The notes: generated from the sequence alone by a model not told the origin. A stretch of 54,093 nt of DNA from an uncultured Candidatus Saccharibacteria bacterium (GCA_964480345.1 CAYZNW010000005.1:9980-64072), one strand, 5' to 3'; positions 4,766-50,763 are shown, counted from the first letter of the stretch. Translations and numbers: made by a program.

Positions 4766-5992
4766 ATGGAAGAGAAAGCAAAAGAAAAGAAAATTACAAA
4801 AGATACTACAGTAGTAGTGAAAAAAAGAGGAAACAGAGCTAAGAGATTCGGATATGTAATACTTGGAATATTACTGTTCTTCTCTGCTTTTGTAATTGTA
4901 GCTATGACAGCATCATACTTTACGTATAGAAATTTTCCTAAACTTCAAGAGGCAGTTTCTAAAATAACAGGAATTAAAGATGGAGAGAAAATAGATGATC
5001 TCTCTTCCAATAGAGATACTGGCAAAGAAATAGTTGTGAGTGAAGCTGAGAAATCTACGATAGATATTGTAAAAGAGACATCACCATCAGTAGTAAGTAT
5101 TGCTGTTACACAGATATCTCTTTCCCAAAACAAAGGAGTAGTTGATCAAAGTAATAATATTGGTACTGGCTTCATAGTTGATTCATCTGGAGTAATAATT
5201 ACGAATCAGCATGTTGTTTCTGGTAAGACAGATAACTACAAAGTAGTTACAAGTGATGGAAAAGAGTATGAAGTGAAGGAAGTATTAAGAGATGATTTGT
5301 ATGATATTGCTATATTAAAAATTGATGCCAAGGGGGATACATTTAAGGGTATCAATTTAGGAAATTCAGATAACTTAGTAGTAGGGCAATCTGTCCTTGC
5401 AATTGGAACACCATTAGGAGAGTTTGCAGGATCTGTCACTACAGGAATAATCAGTGGATTAAATAGAAGTGTTACTGCATCTAATTCCTCTTGGTTTGGT
5501 TCTACTGCTAAAACATATGAGGGAGTAATTCAAACTGATGCAGCAATTAACTCAGGTAACTCAGGTGGCCCTCTTATTAATTCTCAAGGTGAAGTCATAG
5601 GGGTAAATTTTGCTACTACATCATATGCTGATAATATTTCGTTCTCTATCCCTATTAACAAAGTGAAAAATCGATTAGAGGAGTATAGAACTTACGGTAA
5701 ATTTATAAAACCTTACCTAGGAGTCTCATATCAAATGATTACAGAGTATGACGCTCTTTACTATTCAAATGTAGTACCTGGAGCATTAGTAGTAGAGGTA
5801 GATGCTAGTAGTCCAGCGTATGCTGCAGGTATTAGAAGAGGAGATATAGTTACAAAATTTGGAGGAGAGGAAGTTAAAATATCTCTAGGTGATATGATTC
5901 AATCACATAAAGTAGGGGAAGAGGTTGAAGTAGTTGTTAACAGATCTGGCGAAACCCAGACATTTAAGGTAAAGCTAGGTGAGGTAAATTAG
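4766..5992 (+). CDS. htrA: HtrA/DegP-family trypsin-like serine protease with PDZ domain, membrane-anchored
   Basis: TNQHVV (His), DIAILKI (Asp), QTDAAINSGNSGGPL (Ser); C-terminal PDZ; N-terminal TM. Confidence 0.95.
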   Translation: MEEKAKEKKITKDTTVVVKKRGNRAKRFGYVILGILLFFSAFVIVAMTASYFTYRNFPKLQEAVSKITGIKDGEKIDDLSSNRDTGKEIVVSEAEKSTIDIVKETSPSVVSIAVTQISLSQNKGVVDQSNNIGTGFIVDSSGVIITNQHVVSGKTDNYKVVTSDGKEYEVKEVLRDDLYDIAILKIDAKGDTFKGINLGNSDNLVVGQSVLAIGTPLGEFAGSVTTGIISGLNRSVTASNSSWFGSTAKTYEGVIQTDAAINSGNSGGPLINSQGEVIGVNFATTSYADNISFSIPINKVKNRLEEYRTYGKFIKPYLGVSYQMITEYDALYYSNVVPGALVVEVDASSPAYAAGIRRGDIVTKFGGEEVKISLGDMIQSHKVGEEVEVVVNRSGETQTFKVKLGEVN

Positions 5993-45734: not shown

Positions 45735-46184
45735 CTAAACCTCCCCCTGTATACTCCAGAAAGTAACCTGCCCGATATTCATATTTGGATATATCTTAAC
45801 TGGCAAAACAGGATTCAACATCAAAGTACACTGCTTAATAGAGCCTAAATCAATCAAATCTGCTGTAATATTCACAAAAATCCCAAGCCTCCCTATCGAT
45901 GACCGTCCCTTAATAATTGGCACATACAAATTACTCCCTATGACCTCCTGAGTCTTACCGATATATATCTGATTAGGATCTAACAACAAGCCCTCCTCTG
46001 TAATAGTAATCTCCTCTGTCTCATTCTCCCCCTTAGAATCTAAAATATCTCCTTTGTAAATCTGCAATGTAGAATCAATATGAAAATCATATGAATTTGC
46101 TTGTATACTCTTCTCATCAAAAGGAGATATTACAATTGTTCCTTCATTCACACATTTTGAAATTTCTTTACCTGTTAAAATCAT
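45735..46184 (-). CDS. dCTP deaminase/dUTPase-fold protein B (motif-2 Ser/Arg intact; catalytic Glu and C-terminal tail missing)
   Basis: MILTGKEI, ANSYD, GRSSIGRLG, ITADLIDLG, TLML, IGQVTFW. Confidence 0.88.
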   Translation of the reverse strand: MILTGKEISKCVNEGTIVISPFDEKSIQANSYDFHIDSTLQIYKGDILDSKGENETEEITITEEGLLLDPNQIYIGKTQEVIGSNLYVPIIKGRSSIGRLGIFVNITADLIDLGSIKQCTLMLNPVLPVKIYPNMNIGQVTFWSIQGEV

Positions 46185-46705
46185 TTTTCTAATTGTTTAA
46201 ATAATTTACTTAAGTATGGAGTATTCTGAGTCGCATAAAATTCTGTATTGTCATAATTAATCTCCCCTTTAGGTAGCCAAAAAGTCACTTTCCCAATCTC
46301 CATAAATGGATATACTCGCAATTTCTTTACAACCTGAATCTCTAAAGTCCATTTATGTGCTTTCCCTAGCTGACCTAAATCTGCAGTAATTTGCAAAAAC
46401 ATACCAAGCTTACCTATACGATTCCTTCCTGCTAGTGAAGTTACAAAGTGTTGACTACCAATAACTTCACTTGTGGTACCGAGATACAGTTTATTTGGTT
46501 CTAGTACAAAACCCTCCTCTGGGATAGTTATCTCCTTTGTTGAAGGCTCTCTATTAATATCACCAACATCGTCTATCTCTATGAGAGTATTTGAAAGATG
46601 GTAAATATAGCTAGTTGGAGCTATACACCTTTCCTCAAAAGGAGAAATAACAACCCTTCCTGACTCTACCTCTTTTTTTATTTCCTTACCTGTTAGTATG
46701 CTTAT
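46181..46705 (-). CDS. dCTP deaminase/dUTPase-fold protein A, 174 aa, putative ATA start (the ORF track shows only the last 73 aa)
   Basis: Hand-translated frame is open from ATA 46705: (M)SILTGKEIKKEVESGRVVISPFEE...LEPNKLYLGTTSEVIGS...GRNRIGKLGMFLQITADLGQLG...WTLEI. GGAG lies 7 nt upstream. No ATG, GTG or TTG between the upstream in-frame TAG and this point. Confidence 0.8.
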   Translation of the reverse strand: MSILTGKEIKKEVESGRVVISPFEERCIAPTSYIYHLSNTLIEIDDVGDINREPSTKEITIPEEGFVLEPNKLYLGTTSEVIGSQHFVTSLAGRNRIGKLGMFLQITADLGQLGKAHKWTLEIQVVKKLRVYPFMEIGKVTFWLPKGEINYDNTEFYATQNTPYLSKLFKQLEK

Positions 46706-46944
46706 AAACTGTCTCCAACGTAATAAGTTATGTTTATATAACAGAAACTATAGCAGATATTTCAGAATATTTTAAGAAGCTATAAGCTAATTTAGCGTTA
46801 CTTATGTTTAAATCTTCTATCGTTGTTCATAACTGCAGTTAATAAATGAACTAGCTATAATAATAAAAATTGTTAGCTTAAGGTAATCACATTGATAATA
46901 TCCCATACTGTCTTAAATCATTATTAAATATCCTCTTAAATGCT

Positions 46945-47007
46945 TTCACCATCTAAGTTTGTAACCACCTTCAACCTGTTTGATCTTCTTCACTATGATT
47001 TCACCAT
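46945..47007 (+). promoter_or_regulatory. Candidate OmpR/PhoB-type direct-repeat operator
   Basis: TTCACCAT at 46945, TTCACTAT at 46989, TTCACCAT at 47000; all offsets are multiples of 11 bp. Confidence 0.5.
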
Positions 47008-47056
47008 ATCTTTAGTAATGTATTACCGTAATATCTAAATTAATATATTTAGAACT

Positions 47057-47515
47057 ATGAAAATAAAAGTATCCAAGAAAAAAGACAATAAGATAAATAA
47101 AAACCTGATTGTAGTATATACCTCTATAGGTGCAATATTAGTAATACTTGGAGTATACACTGCTCCAGTTAGTGCTAATGCATCAGAAAGCAACATTACT
47201 GCAGTACAGCTTCCTTTGATATCTAAAGTTATTGATGAAATGAATGTTCCTTTAGATGAAATAAAGGAAATAGATGACTCTGCAGAGGGTAAAGCAGCAC
47301 TTCGAGTAGAAAAGATATTAGCAGGTATTAACGAAGGTAAAATTAATGAACGGCAGGCAGAGATTCTTAATGTGTTAGAAGATCTAGCACCTTTAGAGTC
47401 AAATACTCAGCTTGTTACCACATTAAGTGAAATGTACTCTGTTACTAAGGATGAAGTTACCTCTCTTGAGAGTACACTTACCGAGCTTGGTGTAGATCTC
47501 TCGTGGTATGTCTAG
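47057..47515 (+). CDS. Hypothetical secreted helical protein
   Basis: Basic N-region, hydrophobic helix, VSANA cleavage-like site; EGKINERQAE motif; lies just before the two-component genes. Confidence 0.7.
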   Translation: MKIKVSKKKDNKINKNLIVVYTSIGAILVILGVYTAPVSANASESNITAVQLPLISKVIDEMNVPLDEIKEIDDSAEGKAALRVEKILAGINEGKINERQAEILNVLEDLAPLESNTQLVTTLSEMYSVTKDEVTSLESTLTELGVDLSWYV

Positions 47516-47535
47516 TAACAGTATATAATTGAGGT

Positions 47536-48195
47536 ATGAAAATACTGTTAGTAGAAGATGAAGAAGATTTAAGAAATATTGTAAAAAGATATTTAGAAAA
47601 GAGTAAATATTTAGTGGATGTAGCAGGAGATGGTAAGAAGGCTTTAGAGATGAGTAATATCACATCATATGATCTTCTAATTTTAGATTTAAATCTTCCC
47701 ATAATAGATGGTATAGAGGTATCAAAAAGATTGCGCATGAGAGGAAGTGATGTTCCCATAATTATGCTTACTGCTAGATCACAGGTGTACAACAAGCTTG
47801 AGGGTTTTGATGTTGGAGCTGATGATTACATCACTAAACCTTTTGATATGAAAGAGCTATTAGCTAGGATCACTGCTGTTTTGAAAAGAGGCAGGAAAAA
47901 TCTAATTGTATTAAAATTTAATGAATATGATGTGTTCCCTAGGAAAAATATATTAAAGAAAGGTAATGAAGTTGTAGAACTGAGTACAAAGGAGATGGGT
48001 ATATTAGAATACCTTTTACTAAATAAAGGAGTACCTGTATCAACTGAGGAGCTTTTGGAGCATGTTTGGGATACGGAGATTGATATGTTAACTGATACTG
48101 TTAAGACTCATATTAAAACTTTAAGAAAAAAGGTAGACCCTAACAAGAAATATATTTTAAATATCAGAGGTAAGGGCTATTTGTACAAAGGTTAA
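47536..48195 (+). CDS. OmpR/PhoB-family response regulator
   Basis: KILLVEDE, YDLLILDLNLP, MLTAR, GADDYITKPF, HIKTLRKK, IRGKGY. Confidence 0.97.
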   Translation: MKILLVEDEEDLRNIVKRYLEKSKYLVDVAGDGKKALEMSNITSYDLLILDLNLPIIDGIEVSKRLRMRGSDVPIIMLTARSQVYNKLEGFDVGADDYITKPFDMKELLARITAVLKRGRKNLIVLKFNEYDVFPRKNILKKGNEVVELSTKEMGILEYLLLNKGVPVSTEELLEHVWDTEIDMLTDTVKTHIKTLRKKVDPNKKYILNIRGKGYLYKG

Positions 48196-48219
48196 TTAAT
48201 TTCTAATCAAACATATATT

Positions 48220-49365
48220 GTGGAAAGGTTCAGATTTTTTAAATCATTAAAATTTAAGTTAACTATTTGGTACTCATTAATACTTTCAGTGTTCTGTATT
48301 TTCTTTCTTTTCGCAGTGAATATTTGGATGACTAGCTATATGAGTAGATGGGATCCGAATAGCAATGATTTGCCTTTCTGGACGGAGAGAGAAAATATGT
48401 CTGTTCTTTCATCTCTTTCTGAGGAGGAGGTACAAATTATTGTAGCTGCTAGATTGCGAGATATGGAGAATATCCGAATTGTTTCAGTATACTCTGTTCT
48501 ACCACTTGTATTTCTAAGTTTTCTTGGTGGTTATGTTATTGCGACTGTGATGCTTAATCCTTTAGAGACACTAAACAGTACAATCAAGAAGAGAGAGTTG
48601 GAAAATATTGATGAAGAGATACCTTTTGATGATAATGGAGATGAGATATCAGAGTTGATTAAAAGTTTTAATAGGATGAGTAATAGGTTGGGTAAATCTT
48701 TTGATTCGCAAAAGCAATTTATTGAAAATGCTTCTCATGAATTAAAGACTCCGTTAGCTGTTGTTAGTGCAAATACAGATATGATTTTAGATGATGAGAG
48801 TATTACTTTAGATGAGGTTAAGGATTTGGCTAGTAGTAGTAAAAGACAGATTGCCTTTATGAATGATCTGACAGAGGATCTTCTGTTGATGAGTGTGAAG
48901 AATAGTATTAAGTGTAGGAAGATGGATATTCTTCCTTTTCTTAGAGATTTAGCTACTTCTTCTAGTACTGATGAGTTTAAGGTTCTATTTAATGATAAGT
49001 TCAGAAGAAAGCAGATGATTTTTGTTAATATGAATAAGGTTCTTTTGGAGAGAGCTTGTATGAATATTGTAGAGAATAGTATTAAATATTCAGGTGGTAA
49101 TGAATTGGTAATTTCATTAGAGAAAAAAAGAAAAGAGTTGTATATACATTTTGTTGATAATGGTAAGGGTATACCTGAGGAGTCTAAGGAAAAGGTGTTT
49201 GATAGATTCTATCGAGTTGATAAAGGAAGGTGTAGGGATTGCGGTGGTAGTGGTTTAGGTTTATCAATTAGTAGAAAGATAATTGAGTTGCATGGAGGAA
49301 GGGTATATTTGAATAAGGTTAGAAAAGATGGTGCAGAGTTTATTGTTGTTTTGAAAACAGTGTAA
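48220..49365 (+). CDS. HAMP-domain sensor histidine kinase (GTG start)
   Basis: Two TM helices; NASHELKTPL, NIVENSIKY, DNGKGIP, FDRFYRVD, GSGLGLSI. Confidence 0.96.
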   Translation: MERFRFFKSLKFKLTIWYSLILSVFCIFFLFAVNIWMTSYMSRWDPNSNDLPFWTERENMSVLSSLSEEEVQIIVAARLRDMENIRIVSVYSVLPLVFLSFLGGYVIATVMLNPLETLNSTIKKRELENIDEEIPFDDNGDEISELIKSFNRMSNRLGKSFDSQKQFIENASHELKTPLAVVSANTDMILDDESITLDEVKDLASSSKRQIAFMNDLTEDLLLMSVKNSIKCRKMDILPFLRDLATSSSTDEFKVLFNDKFRRKQMIFVNMNKVLLERACMNIVENSIKYSGGNELVISLEKKRKELYIHFVDNGKGIPEESKEKVFDRFYRVDKGRCRDCGGSGLGLSISRKIIELHGGRVYLNKVRKDGAEFIVVLKTV

Positions 49366-49371
49366 GAGATT

Positions 49372-49641
49372 GAAAGAAAACCTCTAGGAGAAATGTGTAT
49401 AAAATACGTAATGGTAAAACCATTATTTTATTTCTCCTAGAGTCAAGTTCTTAACTGGTAGGTACGCTATCTCTGTAGCATTTTAACCCTACGGTTAAGT
49501 TCTTTTTGGTGGTGAGTAAGGGTTGCAGATAAGTTGTCATAATGAGGAGTAATATGAATGAAAACAATTTCCGTTGTCATTTTTGTATGACTTTCCTTAC
49601 TCTTCAAACTCTAGTCAATATCAAGTAACCACCATTAACAG
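49372..49641 (-). ncRNA. Candidate structured non-coding RNA or small-peptide transcript of unknown family
   Basis: Lies between an upstream promoter and a terminator-like hairpin, and contains several nested helices (see findings). Confidence 0.45.
49382..49442 (-). terminator. Long hairpin followed by a U-rich tract on the minus strand
   Basis: 13-bp arms ctctaggagaaat (49382-94) and atttctcctagag (49430-42); inner stem taatggt/accatta; the minus strand continues GUUUUCUUUC. Confidence 0.6.
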
Positions 49642-49646
49642 TATGA

Positions 49647-49675
49647 AGTATAGCATAAAAGAGGTGTTCTGTCAC
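49647..49675 (-). promoter_or_regulatory. Near-consensus sigma70 promoter firing into the 49.37-49.64 kb intergenic region
   Basis: Minus strand: GTGACA (49675-70), 17-nt spacer, TGc-TATACT (49652-47). Confidence 0.6.
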
Positions 49676-50175
49676 TACTTTCTTGCTTCTTGTGCCTTCT
49701 TAATATTTCTCTTCCAAGCTTTTTTCTGTGCATCTGTAGGTTTGTTTTTTTCTGGCACATTTATTTCAGCTTTTGCTCTGTAAATATCTCCTTTTACATG
49801 TTCAGGTTTAGAGCCTAAGCTCTTTAGTAATTTTTTTACTGAAGCCGAATTACTTCGTATTGTATTTCCATATTTTGAAGCTAAATCTTTTGATATTAAC
49901 CAGGCTTGTGTTGCCCATGATCCGCTAGATCGTCTTCCAGCAACTCTCTCTAATCCTCCTTTTTCTCCTACATCATGTATTTTGAATGATGTAAATTGTG
50001 ATTTCTCTCTTATCTGTATTCTAAAGAATTTTCCTTTTCCTGTACTTCCTGGTTTTTTTCTGCTGGCTCCTTGTGGTTGTGCTAATGTTCTTTCTCTTTT
50101 TGTCATTGTTTTCCATTTCTGTTGTGCTTTTTTAATGTTTCTTTTTGATGCTTTTAATTGTTTAGGTGTAGGCAT
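49675..50175 (-). CDS. Conserved hypothetical, highly basic protein (start MPTPKQ at 50175 preferred)
   Basis: KPGSTGKGKFFRI..HDVGEKGGLERVAGRRSSGSWATQAWLISK resembles a widespread uncharacterised family; KRNIKKAQ occurs at both termini. Confidence 0.75.
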   Translation of the reverse strand: MPTPKQLKASKRNIKKAQQKWKTMTKRERTLAQPQGASRKKPGSTGKGKFFRIQIREKSQFTSFKIHDVGEKGGLERVAGRRSSGSWATQAWLISKDLASKYGNTIRSNSASVKKLLKSLGSKPEHVKGDIYRAKAEINVPEKNKPTDAQKKAWKRNIKKAQEARK

Positions 50176-50313: not shown

Positions 50314-50763
50314 ATGGGAAATATGTTATCAGACATAAAAGCCATTGAACCTGTTAACAAAAGGTTTGGGAATAAAACATTTAAAGGATATGATGTCGGT
50401 GGAGGTATGTTTTTATATAACTTGACTGATATACCTACTCCTGTTTTTTTTGCTAATATGGGTAGAACTTTGGAATGTTGTGGTTATGTAGCATCAATTG
50501 TCATAAATAGAAGGAAATCTAATGAGAATAAAGGTGGTTGCACCTTGCTTTCTAATACTGTTACTCATAAAGTGATCAACCTTCCAAAACCATCCCCTAA
50601 TGCTATTTTTCTTGTTAGCAGAGAAGTGTATTTCTTTTGCCAAGACAGGCATGACGTATTTATTCTATCCCAAAATGAATCTGATGCACTCAGGATAGGA
50701 CTACATATGGGTAGTTTATTTATTGAAGGAAGAGGAGAAATAAAGTTCTTATCGAAAGAATGA
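50314..50763 (+). CDS. Hypothetical protein resembling a virus-associated NLTPH...GLPEP family
   Basis: LYNLTDIP, CGYVASI, VINLPKPSPNAIFLVSREV...DRHDVF. Confidence 0.55.
   Translation: MGNMLSDIKAIEPVNKRFGNKTFKGYDVGGGMFLYNLTDIPTPVFFANMGRTLECCGYVASIVINRRKSNENKGGCTLLSNTVTHKVINLPKPSPNAIFLVSREVYFFCQDRHDVFILSQNESDALRIGLHMGSLFIEGRGEIKFLSKE

What the first reader, a model, noticed from the sequence alone, without database searches (positions are those of the whole stretch)
49372..49675. Promoter- and terminator-bounded structured RNA of about 270 nt, convergent on the histidine kinase gene
Seen on the minus strand: a near-consensus promoter (GTGACA-17-TGcTATACT), then nested helices (plus-strand coordinates) 49507-13/49628-34, 49514-21/49595-602, 49536-41/49586-91 with an apical stem. 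A second hairpin follows (cttaac..gtagg / cctac..gttaag, about 49450-49499), then a 61-nt hairpin and U tract. A 5' CUAGAGU (49614-08) can also pair with ACUCUAG (49443-37), overlapping the terminator arm like an antiterminator. Short likenesses to RNase P conserved regions (AAGGAAAGUCA; AAUGCUACAGAGA) are present, but I found no P4 3' strand. Inference: an unannotated sRNA, a divergent housekeeping RNA (e.g. 6S-like), or a switch that controls antisense read-through into the kinase gene.
Basis: partly seen in the sequence, partly recalled or inferred. Interest (0 to 1): 0.7.

Follow-up and report, generated by a model that had tools for sequence, protein, structure and literature searches.

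The report
New structured small RNA in Dojkabacteria
The region encodes a real non-coding RNA of about 265 nt with its own promoter and terminator, conserved in shape in a few related uncultivated CPR bacteria (Candidatus Dojkabacteria); it matches no described RNA family, its function is unknown, and it is not RNase P, 6S or a switch acting on the kinase gene.

Summary
The RNA folds better than all 200 shuffles (z = -3.97).

Homologues occur in six sequence variants from Ca. Dojkabacteria metagenomes. Each lies directly after the same conserved 166-aa gene, and each keeps the promoter, a long-range closing helix, a large pyrimidine-rich loop, hairpin P3 and terminator hairpin P4.

In a hand-made alignment of five lineages, 94% of pair cells are canonical and 29 of 59 pairs change on both sides. 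Slid registers give 39-49% and 3-7 pairs.

Rfam 15 gives no hit for this RNA. The RNase P-like words, the antiterminator pairing, the small ORF in P4 and the adjacency to the kinase gene are not conserved.

Best reading: a new, lineage-restricted small RNA whose promoter overlaps the upstream stop codon and which shares that gene's terminator. It probably acts in trans through a CUCCU or CCUCCUUUCU (anti-Shine-Dalgarno-like) loop, in a genome that rarely uses SD sites. Expression, targets and function are untested.

The parts
49647..49675 (-). Sigma-70-type promoter: -35 GTGACA (49670-49675, overlapping the TAG stop of the upstream gene at 49675-49677), 17-nt spacer, extended -10 TGC TATACT (49647-49655)
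   Evidence: Promoter scan. The same GTGRCA/TAGACA, about 17 nt, TGnTAnnnT arrangement lies at the same place in L002, L010, L016, L044 and L053.
49372..49642 (-). Predicted transcript, about 265-270 nt, from about 49640 to the U tract
   Evidence: Position of the promoter and terminator. MFE z = -3.97. An nhmmer profile of the homologues matches 49373-49636 and nowhere else in the window.
49628..49634 (-). P1 5' strand UGGUGGU (pairs with 49507-49513)
   Evidence: P1 is 7-13 bp with unrelated sequences in the other lineages, and 100% of its cells pair.
49507..49513 (-). P1 3' strand ACCACCA
49603..49627 (-). 5'-side bulge between P1 and P2 (variable: 0-29 nt in homologues, a hairpin in L002)
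49595..49602 (-). P2 5' strand GAGUAAGG (pairs with 49514-49521)
   Evidence: P2 is present in 4 of 5 aligned lineages and absent in L044.
49514..49521 (-). P2 3' strand CCUUACUC
49522..49594 (-). 73-nt interior region: a small hairpin, then a largely unpaired pyrimidine-rich stretch with CAUA...CUCCU (CUCCU at 49545-49549). It holds an 8-nt direct repeat AUGACAAC that allows two alternative partners for GUCAU.
   Evidence: The motif is CCUCCUUUCU in L002, L010, L016 and L053, and only CU-rich in L044.
49450..49499 (-). P3 hairpin: CUUAAC/GUUAAG base, 5' bulge UAAA, apical stem AUGCUA/UAGCGU, loop CAGAGA
   Evidence: 91% of cells pair and 11 of 19 pairs change on both sides. RNAalifold also predicts it on a plain MAFFT alignment.
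49382..49442 (-). P4, a 61-nt terminator hairpin: 13-bp stem CUCUAGGAGAAAU/AUUUCUCCUAGAG (SD-like 5' arm, anti-SD-like 3' arm), 35-nt loop with inner hairpin AAUGGU/ACCAUU
   Evidence: The stem is invariant in four lineages. In L044 it reads GACUGGGAGA/UCUCCCAGUC, with three compensatory pairs.
49372..49381 (-). U-rich tail GUUUUCUUUC after P4 (intrinsic terminator tract)
   Evidence: U-rich in all lineages, weaker in L044. The terminator scan did not list it because its loop limit is 8 nt.
49340..49423 (-). 27-codon ORF (MVLPLRILYTFLLEVFFQSLTLFSKQQ) starting in the P4 loop; judged non-coding
   Evidence: The frame and length are not conserved: 8 aa or another frame in L002, 41 unrelated aa in L010/L016, and the AUG lies 21 nt from the GGGAG in L044. 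It would run past the terminator and into the kinase gene.
49675..50175 (-). Upstream 166-aa gene (conserved CPR protein of unknown function). Its stop codon overlaps the RNA promoter, and no terminator lies between it and P4.
48220..49365 (+). Convergent histidine kinase gene (context only, not part of the element)
   Evidence: Pfam HAMP/HisKA/HATPase_c. Not adjacent to the RNA in the other lineages.

Best explanation
This is a gene for a non-coding RNA of about 265 nt, a new family found so far only in one subclade of Candidatus Dojkabacteria (CPR/Patescibacteria).

Inferred from conserved signals:
- Transcription starts at an extended -10 promoter that overlaps the stop codon of the conserved 166-aa gene.
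- It ends at the P4 hairpin plus U tract. P4 must also end the upstream mRNA, because no other terminator lies between them.
- By position this is a '3'-UTR-type' small RNA with its own promoter.

Shown by comparison:
- The RNA folds into a long-range closing helix (P1, usually extended by P2).
- That helix holds out a 60-70-nt, pyrimidine-rich, mostly unpaired region.
- It is followed by an A-rich linker, a bulged hairpin (P3) and the terminator hairpin (P4).

Inferred mechanism, about 0.35-0.4 on its own: the RNA acts in trans as a base-pairing regulator of translation initiation.
- The displayed CAU...CUCCU / CCUCCUUUCU stretch is complementary to a start codon plus a Shine-Dalgarno site. 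It would occlude the ribosome-binding sites of the few SD-led mRNAs of this SD-poor genome.
- One candidate target is the divergently encoded, always SD-led small-protein gene on the far side of the 166-aa gene.

The overall confidence below combines 'real structured RNA gene' (about 0.85) with this mechanism.
For: Promoter, helices and terminator are present as described.

Folding: MFE z-scores run from -3.5 to -4.4 in four independent lineages, and each MFE fold gives the same four-part architecture without constraints (the L044 lineage's MFE fold gives the same P1-loop-P3-P4 layout without P2, no z-score computed).

Homologues:
- Six sequence variants (window/L001; L002; L044-L049; L010/L017/L050/L051; L016/L022; L052-L054).
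- All lie directly after the same 166-aa gene.
- The gene on the other side differs between lineages.

Covariation:
- Hand alignment of five lineages: 234 of 248 pair cells are canonical and 29 of 59 pairs change on both sides.
- With the 3' partner slid by 1-3 columns: 39-49% canonical and 3-7 pairs.
- P1 has unrelated sequences in three lineages yet pairs at 100% of cells.
- P4 shows three compensatory pairs in L044.
- RNAalifold on an unfitted MAFFT alignment of the 3' half predicts P3 and P4, with 11 of 37 pairs compensated.
- G-U cells outnumber C-A cells 12 to 4, which favours the minus strand.

Rate: L002 and L044 proteins are more than 90% identical, yet their RNAs differ by large indels and many substitutions while the helices are kept.

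Non-coding: the ORF in P4 is not conserved.

Mechanism:
- CCUCCUUUCU lies in the unpaired region of 4 of 6 variants, and CUCCU in the window.
- Only 5 of 50 genes in the window have an SD-like motif.
- The best predicted partners of the window's loop are those SD-bearing starts: 40365 at -17.6 and 11048 at -17.1 kcal/mol.
- The neighbour gene (window 50314-50763) carries a strong GGAGG in all six variants.
- It has 9-10 contiguous complementary bases in L002 and L010, with matching flanks: CA/UG in L002 and UU/AA in L010.
Against: - There are no expression data. Promoter, start and 3' end are predictions.
- The family was found only in a narrow clade. It is absent downstream of the same gene at 70% protein identity or less.
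- The five-lineage alignment was fitted by hand to the structure, so its pair counts lean towards it. Positional homology in P1 and P2 is uncertain.
- The plus strand folds equally well.
- The anti-SD-like motif is degenerate in the window (UUACUCCUC) and missing in L044.
- Cognate RNA-target energies are best only for L002 and L010, not for the window, L016, L053 or L044. In the window the neighbour gene ranks 8th of 49 scored TIRs.
- Any CCUCC pairs with any strong SD, so complementarity alone is weak evidence.
- With unrestricted duplex prediction no target stands out from background.
Confidence: 0.5

Rival explanations
1. It is a cis-acting 3' untranslated region of the 166-aa gene. The structured domain and P4 stabilise or terminate that mRNA, and the 'promoter' is incidental or minor.
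For: No terminator separates the 166-aa stop codon from P4, so read-through must end at P4. The RNA is always directly downstream of this gene, whatever lies beyond it.
Against: The -35 and extended -10 elements are conserved in position in all six variants, although the surrounding DNA diverges fast. The same gene in other CPR lineages has no such 3' region. The two roles can coexist.
Confidence: 0.2
2. It is a protein-binding or decoy RNA, such as a 6S-like RNA, a sponge for a protein that binds single-stranded pyrimidine-rich RNA, or a mimic of the 16S rRNA 3' tail. It would act by titrating a protein or the 30S subunit rather than by pairing with mRNAs.
For: A long closing helix displays a 60-70-nt open loop with repeated CU-rich words, for example CCACCUCCUUUC twice in L002 and CUUUCUGU twice in L010. 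L002 carries CACCUCCUUUCU; its first nine bases are the only part matched to a sequence held here (E. coli 16S 1533-1541, whose 3' end reads CACCUCCUUA), the full 12-nt likeness to a Bacillus-type tail resting on my own knowledge. The best exact matches of the window, L002 and L010 RNAs to E. coli 16S all fall in nt 1502-1541. Sequence evolves fast while shape is kept, as in 6S RNA.
Against: No 6S model matches at E <= 10 in the region or in four loci carrying the RNA (window-identical L001 plus three homologue lineages). There is no terminal stem or central bubble of 6S type. Exact 11-mers against 16S occur in about 5% of shuffles. The 16S-like words sit in different parts of the RNA in different lineages, and CCUCC is absent in L044. 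The organism's own 16S was not available.
Confidence: 0.12
3. It is an mRNA for a small hydrophobic protein (type I toxin-like). A structured 5' UTR keeps the SD and AUG sequestered in P4.
For: A strong SD (AGGAG) lies 10 nt before an AUG, and the 27-codon ORF encodes a hydrophobic peptide. The SD is locked in a 13-bp helix, as in type I toxin mRNAs.
Against: The ORF is 8 codons or in another frame in L002, 41 unrelated codons in L010/L016, and its AUG lies 21 nt from the GGGAG in L044. The shared TFLLE codons are invariant at nucleotide level because they form the 3' arm. The ORF runs through the terminator into the convergent gene.
Confidence: 0.04
4. It is a riboswitch or attenuator whose P4 terminator controls read-through, either antisense into the kinase gene or ancestrally into the dcd-udg operon on the same strand.
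For: The RNA and dcd are always on the same strand, with the RNA upstream. In L002 and L044 nothing lies between them. CUAGAGU/ACUCUAG could compete with P4 in the window.
Against: The kinase is adjacent only in the window. Convergent genes separate the RNA from dcd in three lineages. dcd has its own conserved promoter-like box. The alternative pairing is not conserved. The 5' domain has no conserved ligand-pocket-like core; its sequence is the fastest-evolving part.
Confidence: 0.05
5. It is a divergent RNase P RNA or another universal housekeeping RNA (SRP, tmRNA).
For: There are short likenesses to AAGGAAAGUCA and ACAGAGA.
Against: No Rfam hit even at E <= 10. ARAGORN finds no tmRNA. The words are not conserved in homologues. 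There is no P4 pseudoknot partner. The family has a narrow clade distribution, unlike a universal RNA.
Confidence: 0.01

Closest known systems
3'-UTR-type small RNAs with an internal promoter (for example DapZ and MicL in enterobacteria; from my own knowledge of the field)
   Same: The promoter overlaps the end of the upstream coding sequence. The small RNA shares the intrinsic terminator of that mRNA. It is conserved together with the upstream gene. The proposed action is pairing at ribosome-binding sites.
   Different: It is two to three times longer, with an ornate four-part fold. No Hfq or ProQ dependence is known or testable here. The organism is an SD-poor CPR bacterium. Targets are unknown.
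Multi-hairpin Gram-positive regulatory RNAs with C/U-rich seed loops that pair with SD sites (RNAIII, RsaE/RoxS; own knowledge)
   Same: Unpaired CUCC-type motifs are displayed on a stable scaffold and are complementary to SD sequences.
   Different: There is no sequence or structural homology (no Rfam hit). The motif is not invariant in this family (L044 lacks it).
6S RNA (Rfam RF00013 and relatives)
   Same: Similar size class. Own promoter. Fast-evolving sequence with a kept secondary structure. A long closing stem around a large open region.
   Different: No covariance-model match at E <= 10. No terminal stem or symmetric central bubble. Two extra 3' hairpins. Narrow distribution.
Bacterial RNase P RNA (RF00010/RF00011)
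   Same: Only short word likenesses (GGAAAGUC, ACAGAGA).
   Different: No model match, no P4 pairing, and the words are not conserved in homologues.
Type I toxin mRNAs (hok, tisB, aapA-like; own knowledge)
   Same: The SD is sequestered in a stable hairpin, there are long-range 5'/3' helices, and the window has a small hydrophobic ORF.
   Different: The ORF is not conserved in frame, length or sequence. No antisense RNA gene is evident.

Membership tests
RNase P RNA | Match to the Rfam covariance models (conserved core P1-P4, CR-I/CR-V) | tested here: not met
   No hit at gathering score in the whole window. None at E <= 10 in 49200-49850 or in four loci carrying the RNA (window-identical L001 plus three homologue lineages).
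RNase P RNA | Universally conserved P4 strands (GGAAAGUC... / ACAGAA...) kept among homologues | tested here: not met
   The window has GGAAAGUC. The equivalent positions read GGAAAAGUU (L002), GGUAACCGU (L010) and GGUGACCGU (L016), and the segment is absent in L044.
6S RNA | Match to 6S covariance models; closing stem, central bubble, terminal stem | tested here: not met
   No hit at E <= 10. The folds show a closing stem but no terminal stem, and two further hairpins.
tmRNA / tRNA-like | tRNA-like domain and tag reading frame | tested here: not met
   ARAGORN finds nothing in the window.
Any described Rfam family (4227 models) | Score at or above the gathering threshold | tested here: not met
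   Zero matches. Sub-threshold hits are unrelated eukaryotic snoRNA or miRNA models and do not recur in homologues.
Independent bacterial small-RNA gene | Own promoter | tested here: met
   Prediction only: -35/extended -10 found by the scan and conserved in position in six variants. The start site has not been mapped.
Independent bacterial small-RNA gene | Intrinsic terminator (G+C-containing stem followed by a U tract) | tested here: inconclusive
   A 13-bp stem plus GUUUUCUUUC is present and conserved. The 35-nt loop is outside the scan's definition, and the tract is weak in L044.
Independent bacterial small-RNA gene | Non-coding: no conserved reading frame | tested here: met
   The only SD-led ORF differs in frame, length and sequence among lineages.
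Independent bacterial small-RNA gene | Conserved secondary structure supported by compensatory changes | tested here: met
   94.4% of cells are canonical and 29 of 59 pairs are compensated, against 3-7 in slid registers (hand alignment). On an unfitted alignment, 11 of 37 pairs are compensated.
Independent bacterial small-RNA gene | A discrete transcript is expressed | not testable with these tools
   No transcriptome data are available here.
Riboswitch / transcription attenuator | A conserved downstream gene on the same strand, under control of the terminator, and a conserved alternative (antiterminator) pairing | tested here: not met
   The downstream neighbour varies and is convergent in most lineages. 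The alternative pairing is not conserved.
Type I toxin-antitoxin | A conserved small hydrophobic toxin ORF | tested here: not met

The most novel reading that the evidence does not exclude
The RNA may be the dedicated trans-repressor (antitoxin-like) of the small-protein gene encoded divergently two genes away (window 50314-50763). That gene's product resembles a PADLOC family of unknown small proteins that are sometimes fused to CARF domains.

- In all six variants this gene keeps a strong GGAGG ribosome-binding site, although the genome otherwise rarely uses SD sites.
- The RNA loop carries CAU...CCUCC, complementary to that start region.
- In two lineages (L002 and L010) the bases flanking the motif co-vary with the target's flanks.

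Together with the conserved 166-aa protein, this would be a CPR-specific three-part cassette in which an rRNA-tail-like RNA competes with the ribosome for one SD.
Probability: 0.12. Interest if true: 0.65.

Novelty: new member of a known kind. Interest (0 to 1): 0.45.

Why it matters
My four literature searches turned up no report of a regulatory RNA in CPR/Patescibacteria, bacteria with tiny genomes that are mostly uncultivated. This is a well-supported candidate. It has conserved transcription signals and a fold maintained by compensatory changes while the sequence drifts at about the intergenic rate.

If it does work through its anti-SD-like loop, it would show how a lineage that has largely abandoned Shine-Dalgarno initiation still uses the SD/anti-SD interaction for regulation. 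As it stands it is a new RNA family of unknown function. That is useful for annotation and as a target for metatranscriptomic follow-up, but it is not a surprise in kind.

Tried and rejected
- Rfam at gathering score and at E <= 10 on the window and on homologue loci: nothing relevant.
- tRNA/tmRNA scan: nothing.
- Phage collection, blastn: no match.
- Kinase protein used to fetch related genomes: no relatives confirmed.
- Viral-contig pattern scans: only chance hairpins, or nothing.
- Passing the hand alignment to the tools with N padding: MAFFT re-gapped it. Pair counts and slide controls were therefore computed in Python.
- Covariance model: not built. The MAFFT alignment of the L010/L016 group misplaces P1 because the 5' strand is duplicated in L016.
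- RNase P likeness: rejected, because the words are not conserved.
- Antiterminator pairing CUAGAGU/ACUCUAG: marginal in the window (5% of shuffles) and absent elsewhere.
- Small ORF or type I toxin: rejected.
- Integron attC-like reading of the P3 base (ACTTAAC/GTTAAG): holds only in the window sequence.
- 16S h45 or tail mimicry: the best exact matches cluster at 16S nt 1502-1541, but each is individually insignificant and they are inconsistently placed.
- Target prediction with unrestricted duplexes: no gene stands out from background.
- Cognate against non-cognate RNA-target energies: not diagonal overall.
- Function of the 166-aa protein: no Pfam, NCBIfam, PADLOC or PDB sequence hit. The AlphaFold model is confident but has no fold match.
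- Literature searches for CPR small RNAs or 6S RNA: nothing relevant.

Full report
**Observation**

- The promoter scan reports GTGACA, a 17-nt spacer and TATACT with an upstream TG, 10 of 12 matches. The -35 overlaps the TAG stop of the upstream gene.
- UGGUGGU (49634-28) pairs with ACCACCA (49513-07).
- GAGUAAGG (49602-49595) pairs with CCUUACUC (49521-14).
- GUCAUA (49591-86) can pair with UAUGAC (49541-36).
- The hairpin 49382-49442 is exactly 61 nt and is followed by GUUUUCUUUC.

The minimum-energy fold of the 274-nt RNA (-67.3 kcal/mol) contains P1, P2, hairpin P3 and hairpin P4. It is better than all 200 dinucleotide shuffles (z = -3.97). The complementary strand folds as well (z = -3.89), so energy does not decide the strand.

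**Context**

The window is a 33% G+C bacterial chromosome segment carrying DnaB, SecA, glycosyltransferases and an ELP3-like radical SAM gene.
- The region lies between a histidine kinase gene (48220-49365, plus strand; the response regulator is upstream) and a 166-aa gene on the minus strand (49675-50175).
- The 166-aa protein has no Pfam or NCBIfam match. It has 542 homologues, the named ones from Patescibacteria (one is labelled Blastocatellia). The closest (81%) is from Candidatus Dojkabacteria.
- The window therefore comes from a Dojkabacteria-like CPR bacterium.

**Known families**

- Rfam 15 (4227 models) gives no match at gathering score anywhere in the window.
- At E <= 10 the region gives only unrelated eukaryotic snoRNA and miRNA models, plus two bacterial motifs far below threshold.
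- The same search on four loci carrying the RNA (window-identical L001 plus three homologue lineages) gives nothing recurrent.
- ARAGORN finds no tRNA or tmRNA.

**Homologues**

I looked up contigs that encode relatives of the 166-aa protein. I also scanned the genome and metagenome collections for the P4 hairpin pattern. Together these gave six distinct versions of the RNA:
- window/L001;
- L002 (also L003-L005, L014, L020);
- L044-L049;
- L010/L017/L050/L051;
- L016/L022;
- L052-L054.

Each version lies directly after the stop codon of the 166-aa gene. Each has the same promoter layout: GTGRCA or TAGACA, about 17 nt, then TGnTAnnnT.

Relatives of the gene at 70% identity or less have another gene, a tRNA or a contig end there instead. 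A profile of the family finds one copy per locus and none elsewhere in the window.

**Structure**

Independent MFE folds of the window, L002, L010, L016 and L044 RNAs all give the same order of elements:
- a long-range helix P1, extended by P2 in four of the five aligned lineages;
- a 60-70-nt weakly structured, pyrimidine-rich interior region enclosed by those helices;
- an A-rich linker;
- a bulged hairpin P3;
- a long hairpin P4 with a U-rich tail.

The z-scores are -3.97, -3.54, -4.13 and -4.41.

The P1 sequences are unrelated between lineages, yet always complementary:
- UGGUGGU/ACCACCA;
- GUAAGAAUG/CAUUCUUAC;
- GUAGGAAUGGUGG/CCACCAUUCCUAC;
- UUGAGAGUGAA/UUCACUCUCAA.

In my segment-wise alignment of five lineages, 234 of 248 pair cells are canonical (94.4%) and 29 of 59 pairs change on both sides. 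Sliding the 3' partners by 1-3 columns gives 39-49% and 3-7 pairs (four-lineage version).

P4 is invariant in four lineages. In L044 it becomes GACUGGGAGA/UCUCCCAGUC, with three compensated pairs.

This alignment was fitted by hand, which biases it towards the structure. As an unfitted control, RNAalifold on a plain MAFFT alignment of the 3' half still predicts P3 and P4, with 11 of 37 pairs compensated.

G-U cells outnumber C-A cells 12 to 4. With the promoter and the U tract, this assigns the RNA to the minus strand.

The L002 and L044 proteins fall in one cluster at 90% identity, yet their RNAs differ by large indels (280 nt against 223 nt) while the helices are kept. Selection therefore acts on shape more than on sequence.

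**What it is not**

- RNase P. The RNase P-like words are not conserved: GGAAAGUC in the window reads GGAAAAGUU, GGUAACCGU or GGUGACCGU in other lineages, and the segment is absent in L044.
- A small-protein mRNA. The 27-codon ORF that begins in the P4 loop is 8 codons or another frame in L002, 41 unrelated codons in L010/L016, and far from the GGGAG in L044. The shared TFLLE codons are simply the invariant 3' arm.
- A switch on the kinase gene. The kinase operon is next to the RNA only in the window. L010, L016 and L053 have a convergent 149-aa gene there, and L002 and L044 have nothing before the dcd-udg genes.
- An antiterminator. CUAGAGU/ACUCUAG is reached by 5% of shuffles in the window and is no better than shuffles in the other lineages.
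- The leader of dcd. dcd keeps its own conserved promoter-like box, and convergent genes intervene in most lineages.

**How it probably works**

By position this is a small RNA of the 3'-UTR type with its own promoter. P4 must also terminate the 166-aa mRNA, since no other terminator lies between them.

The most distinctive conserved single-stranded element is in the interior loop:
- CAUA, 3-5 nt, then CCUCCUUUCU in L002, L010, L016 and L053;
- CAUAUUACUCCUC in the window;
- only a CU-rich tract in L044.

This reads as the complement of a start codon plus a Shine-Dalgarno site.

The genome itself is SD-poor. Only 5 of 50 longest-ORF starts have an SD-like word at -20 to -4 (a rough count, because the starts are not curated). 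The best predicted partners of the window's loop are exactly those few SD-led starts: 40365 at -17.6 and 11048 at -17.1 kcal/mol.

One SD-led gene is the divergent neighbour of the 166-aa gene (window 50314-50763).
- Its homologues in all six variants keep a strong GGAGG.
- The loop matches the neighbour's start region by 9 contiguous bases in L002. A 15-pair duplex with one bulge reaches the AUG there.
- It matches by 10 contiguous bases in L010.
- The flanks co-vary: CA with UG in L002 and UU with AA in L010.

However, cognate pairs are not the best in the window, L016, L053 or L044, and any CCUCC pairs with any strong SD.

I therefore commit to a trans-acting base-pairing regulator of SD-led translation starts as the most likely mechanism, at roughly 0.35-0.4. 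The neighbour gene is a candidate target, not a finding.

Protein sponge, 6S-like function and 16S-tail mimicry remain open.
- L002 carries CACCUCCUUUCU.
- The best exact matches of three RNAs to E. coli 16S all fall at nt 1502-1541.
- Each match is individually insignificant, and they sit at non-homologous places in the RNAs.

**Verdict**

This is a real, conserved, structured non-coding RNA gene that belongs to no described family and is restricted, as far as seen, to one Dojkabacteria subclade. Of its three interpretations, only 'unannotated sRNA' survives. Function and expression are untested. Novelty: a new member of a known kind. Interest is moderate.

Noticed in passing
window 49675-50175 (-): The 166-aa basic protein belongs to a very conserved CPR/Patescibacteria family (542 hits; 53-81% identity across Dojkabacteria, Roizmanbacteria, Zambryskibacteria and Minisyncoccia). 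It has NIKKAQ helices at both ends. There is no Pfam, NCBIfam, PADLOC or PDB sequence match. The AlphaFold model is confident (pLDDT 81.7), but Foldseek finds no PDB fold match.
   Followed up: partly
whole window (gene starts), e.g. 36807, 37945, 47536: The genome is poor in Shine-Dalgarno sites: about 5 of 50 longest-ORF starts have one. Several ATGs sit a few bases after TATAAT-like boxes, which suggests many leaderless mRNAs. The count is rough because the start codons are not curated.
   Followed up: partly
window 50314-50763 (+); L002 3426-3878 (-); L010 852-1190 (-): The divergent neighbour of the 166-aa gene is a small protein (104-150 aa, 34-38% identity between lineages). It matches PADLOC 'Unk_01, unknown small protein sometimes fused to CARF' at E about 2e-5 to 4e-5 in all three homologues tested. 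It keeps a strong GGAGG ribosome-binding site in all six variants.
   Followed up: partly
window about 46181-46699 (-); L002 about 5025-5529 (+): The first of two tandem dCTP-deaminase-like genes has an open, conserved N-terminus (ILTGKEIKK...) that begins at ATA in the window and ATT in L002, with no in-frame ATG, GTG or TTG. Gene callers report only the last 71-73 codons. This may be a conserved non-AUG start codon.
   Followed up: partly
window 46185-49371, between the RNA terminator and dcd: This is a variable insertion point. The window has a three-gene cassette here (152-aa protein, OmpR-type response regulator, histidine kinase). L010, L016 and L053 have one convergent 149-aa gene, and L002 and L044 have nothing.
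   Followed up: partly
L016 1819-1855; L010 1896-1920: In the L016/L053 lineage the 5' strand of P1 is tandemly duplicated (AGUUGAGAGUGGAU then ACUCGAGAGAGGUG). MAFFT therefore aligns L010's P1 to the second copy. Several lineages also have direct repeats inside the interior loop: AUGACAAC twice in the window and CCACCUCCUUUC twice in L002. These repeats offer alternative pairing partners.
   Followed up: no
window 49486-49496 and L010 1918-1928, compared with E. coli 16S nt 1502-1516: The window's P3 contains UAACCGUAGGG and L010's P2 contains AAGGUAACCGU. Both are 11-nt exact matches to the 5' strand of 16S helix 45, but they lie at non-homologous places in the RNA. About 5% of shuffles give an 11-mer somewhere in 16S.
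   Followed up: partly
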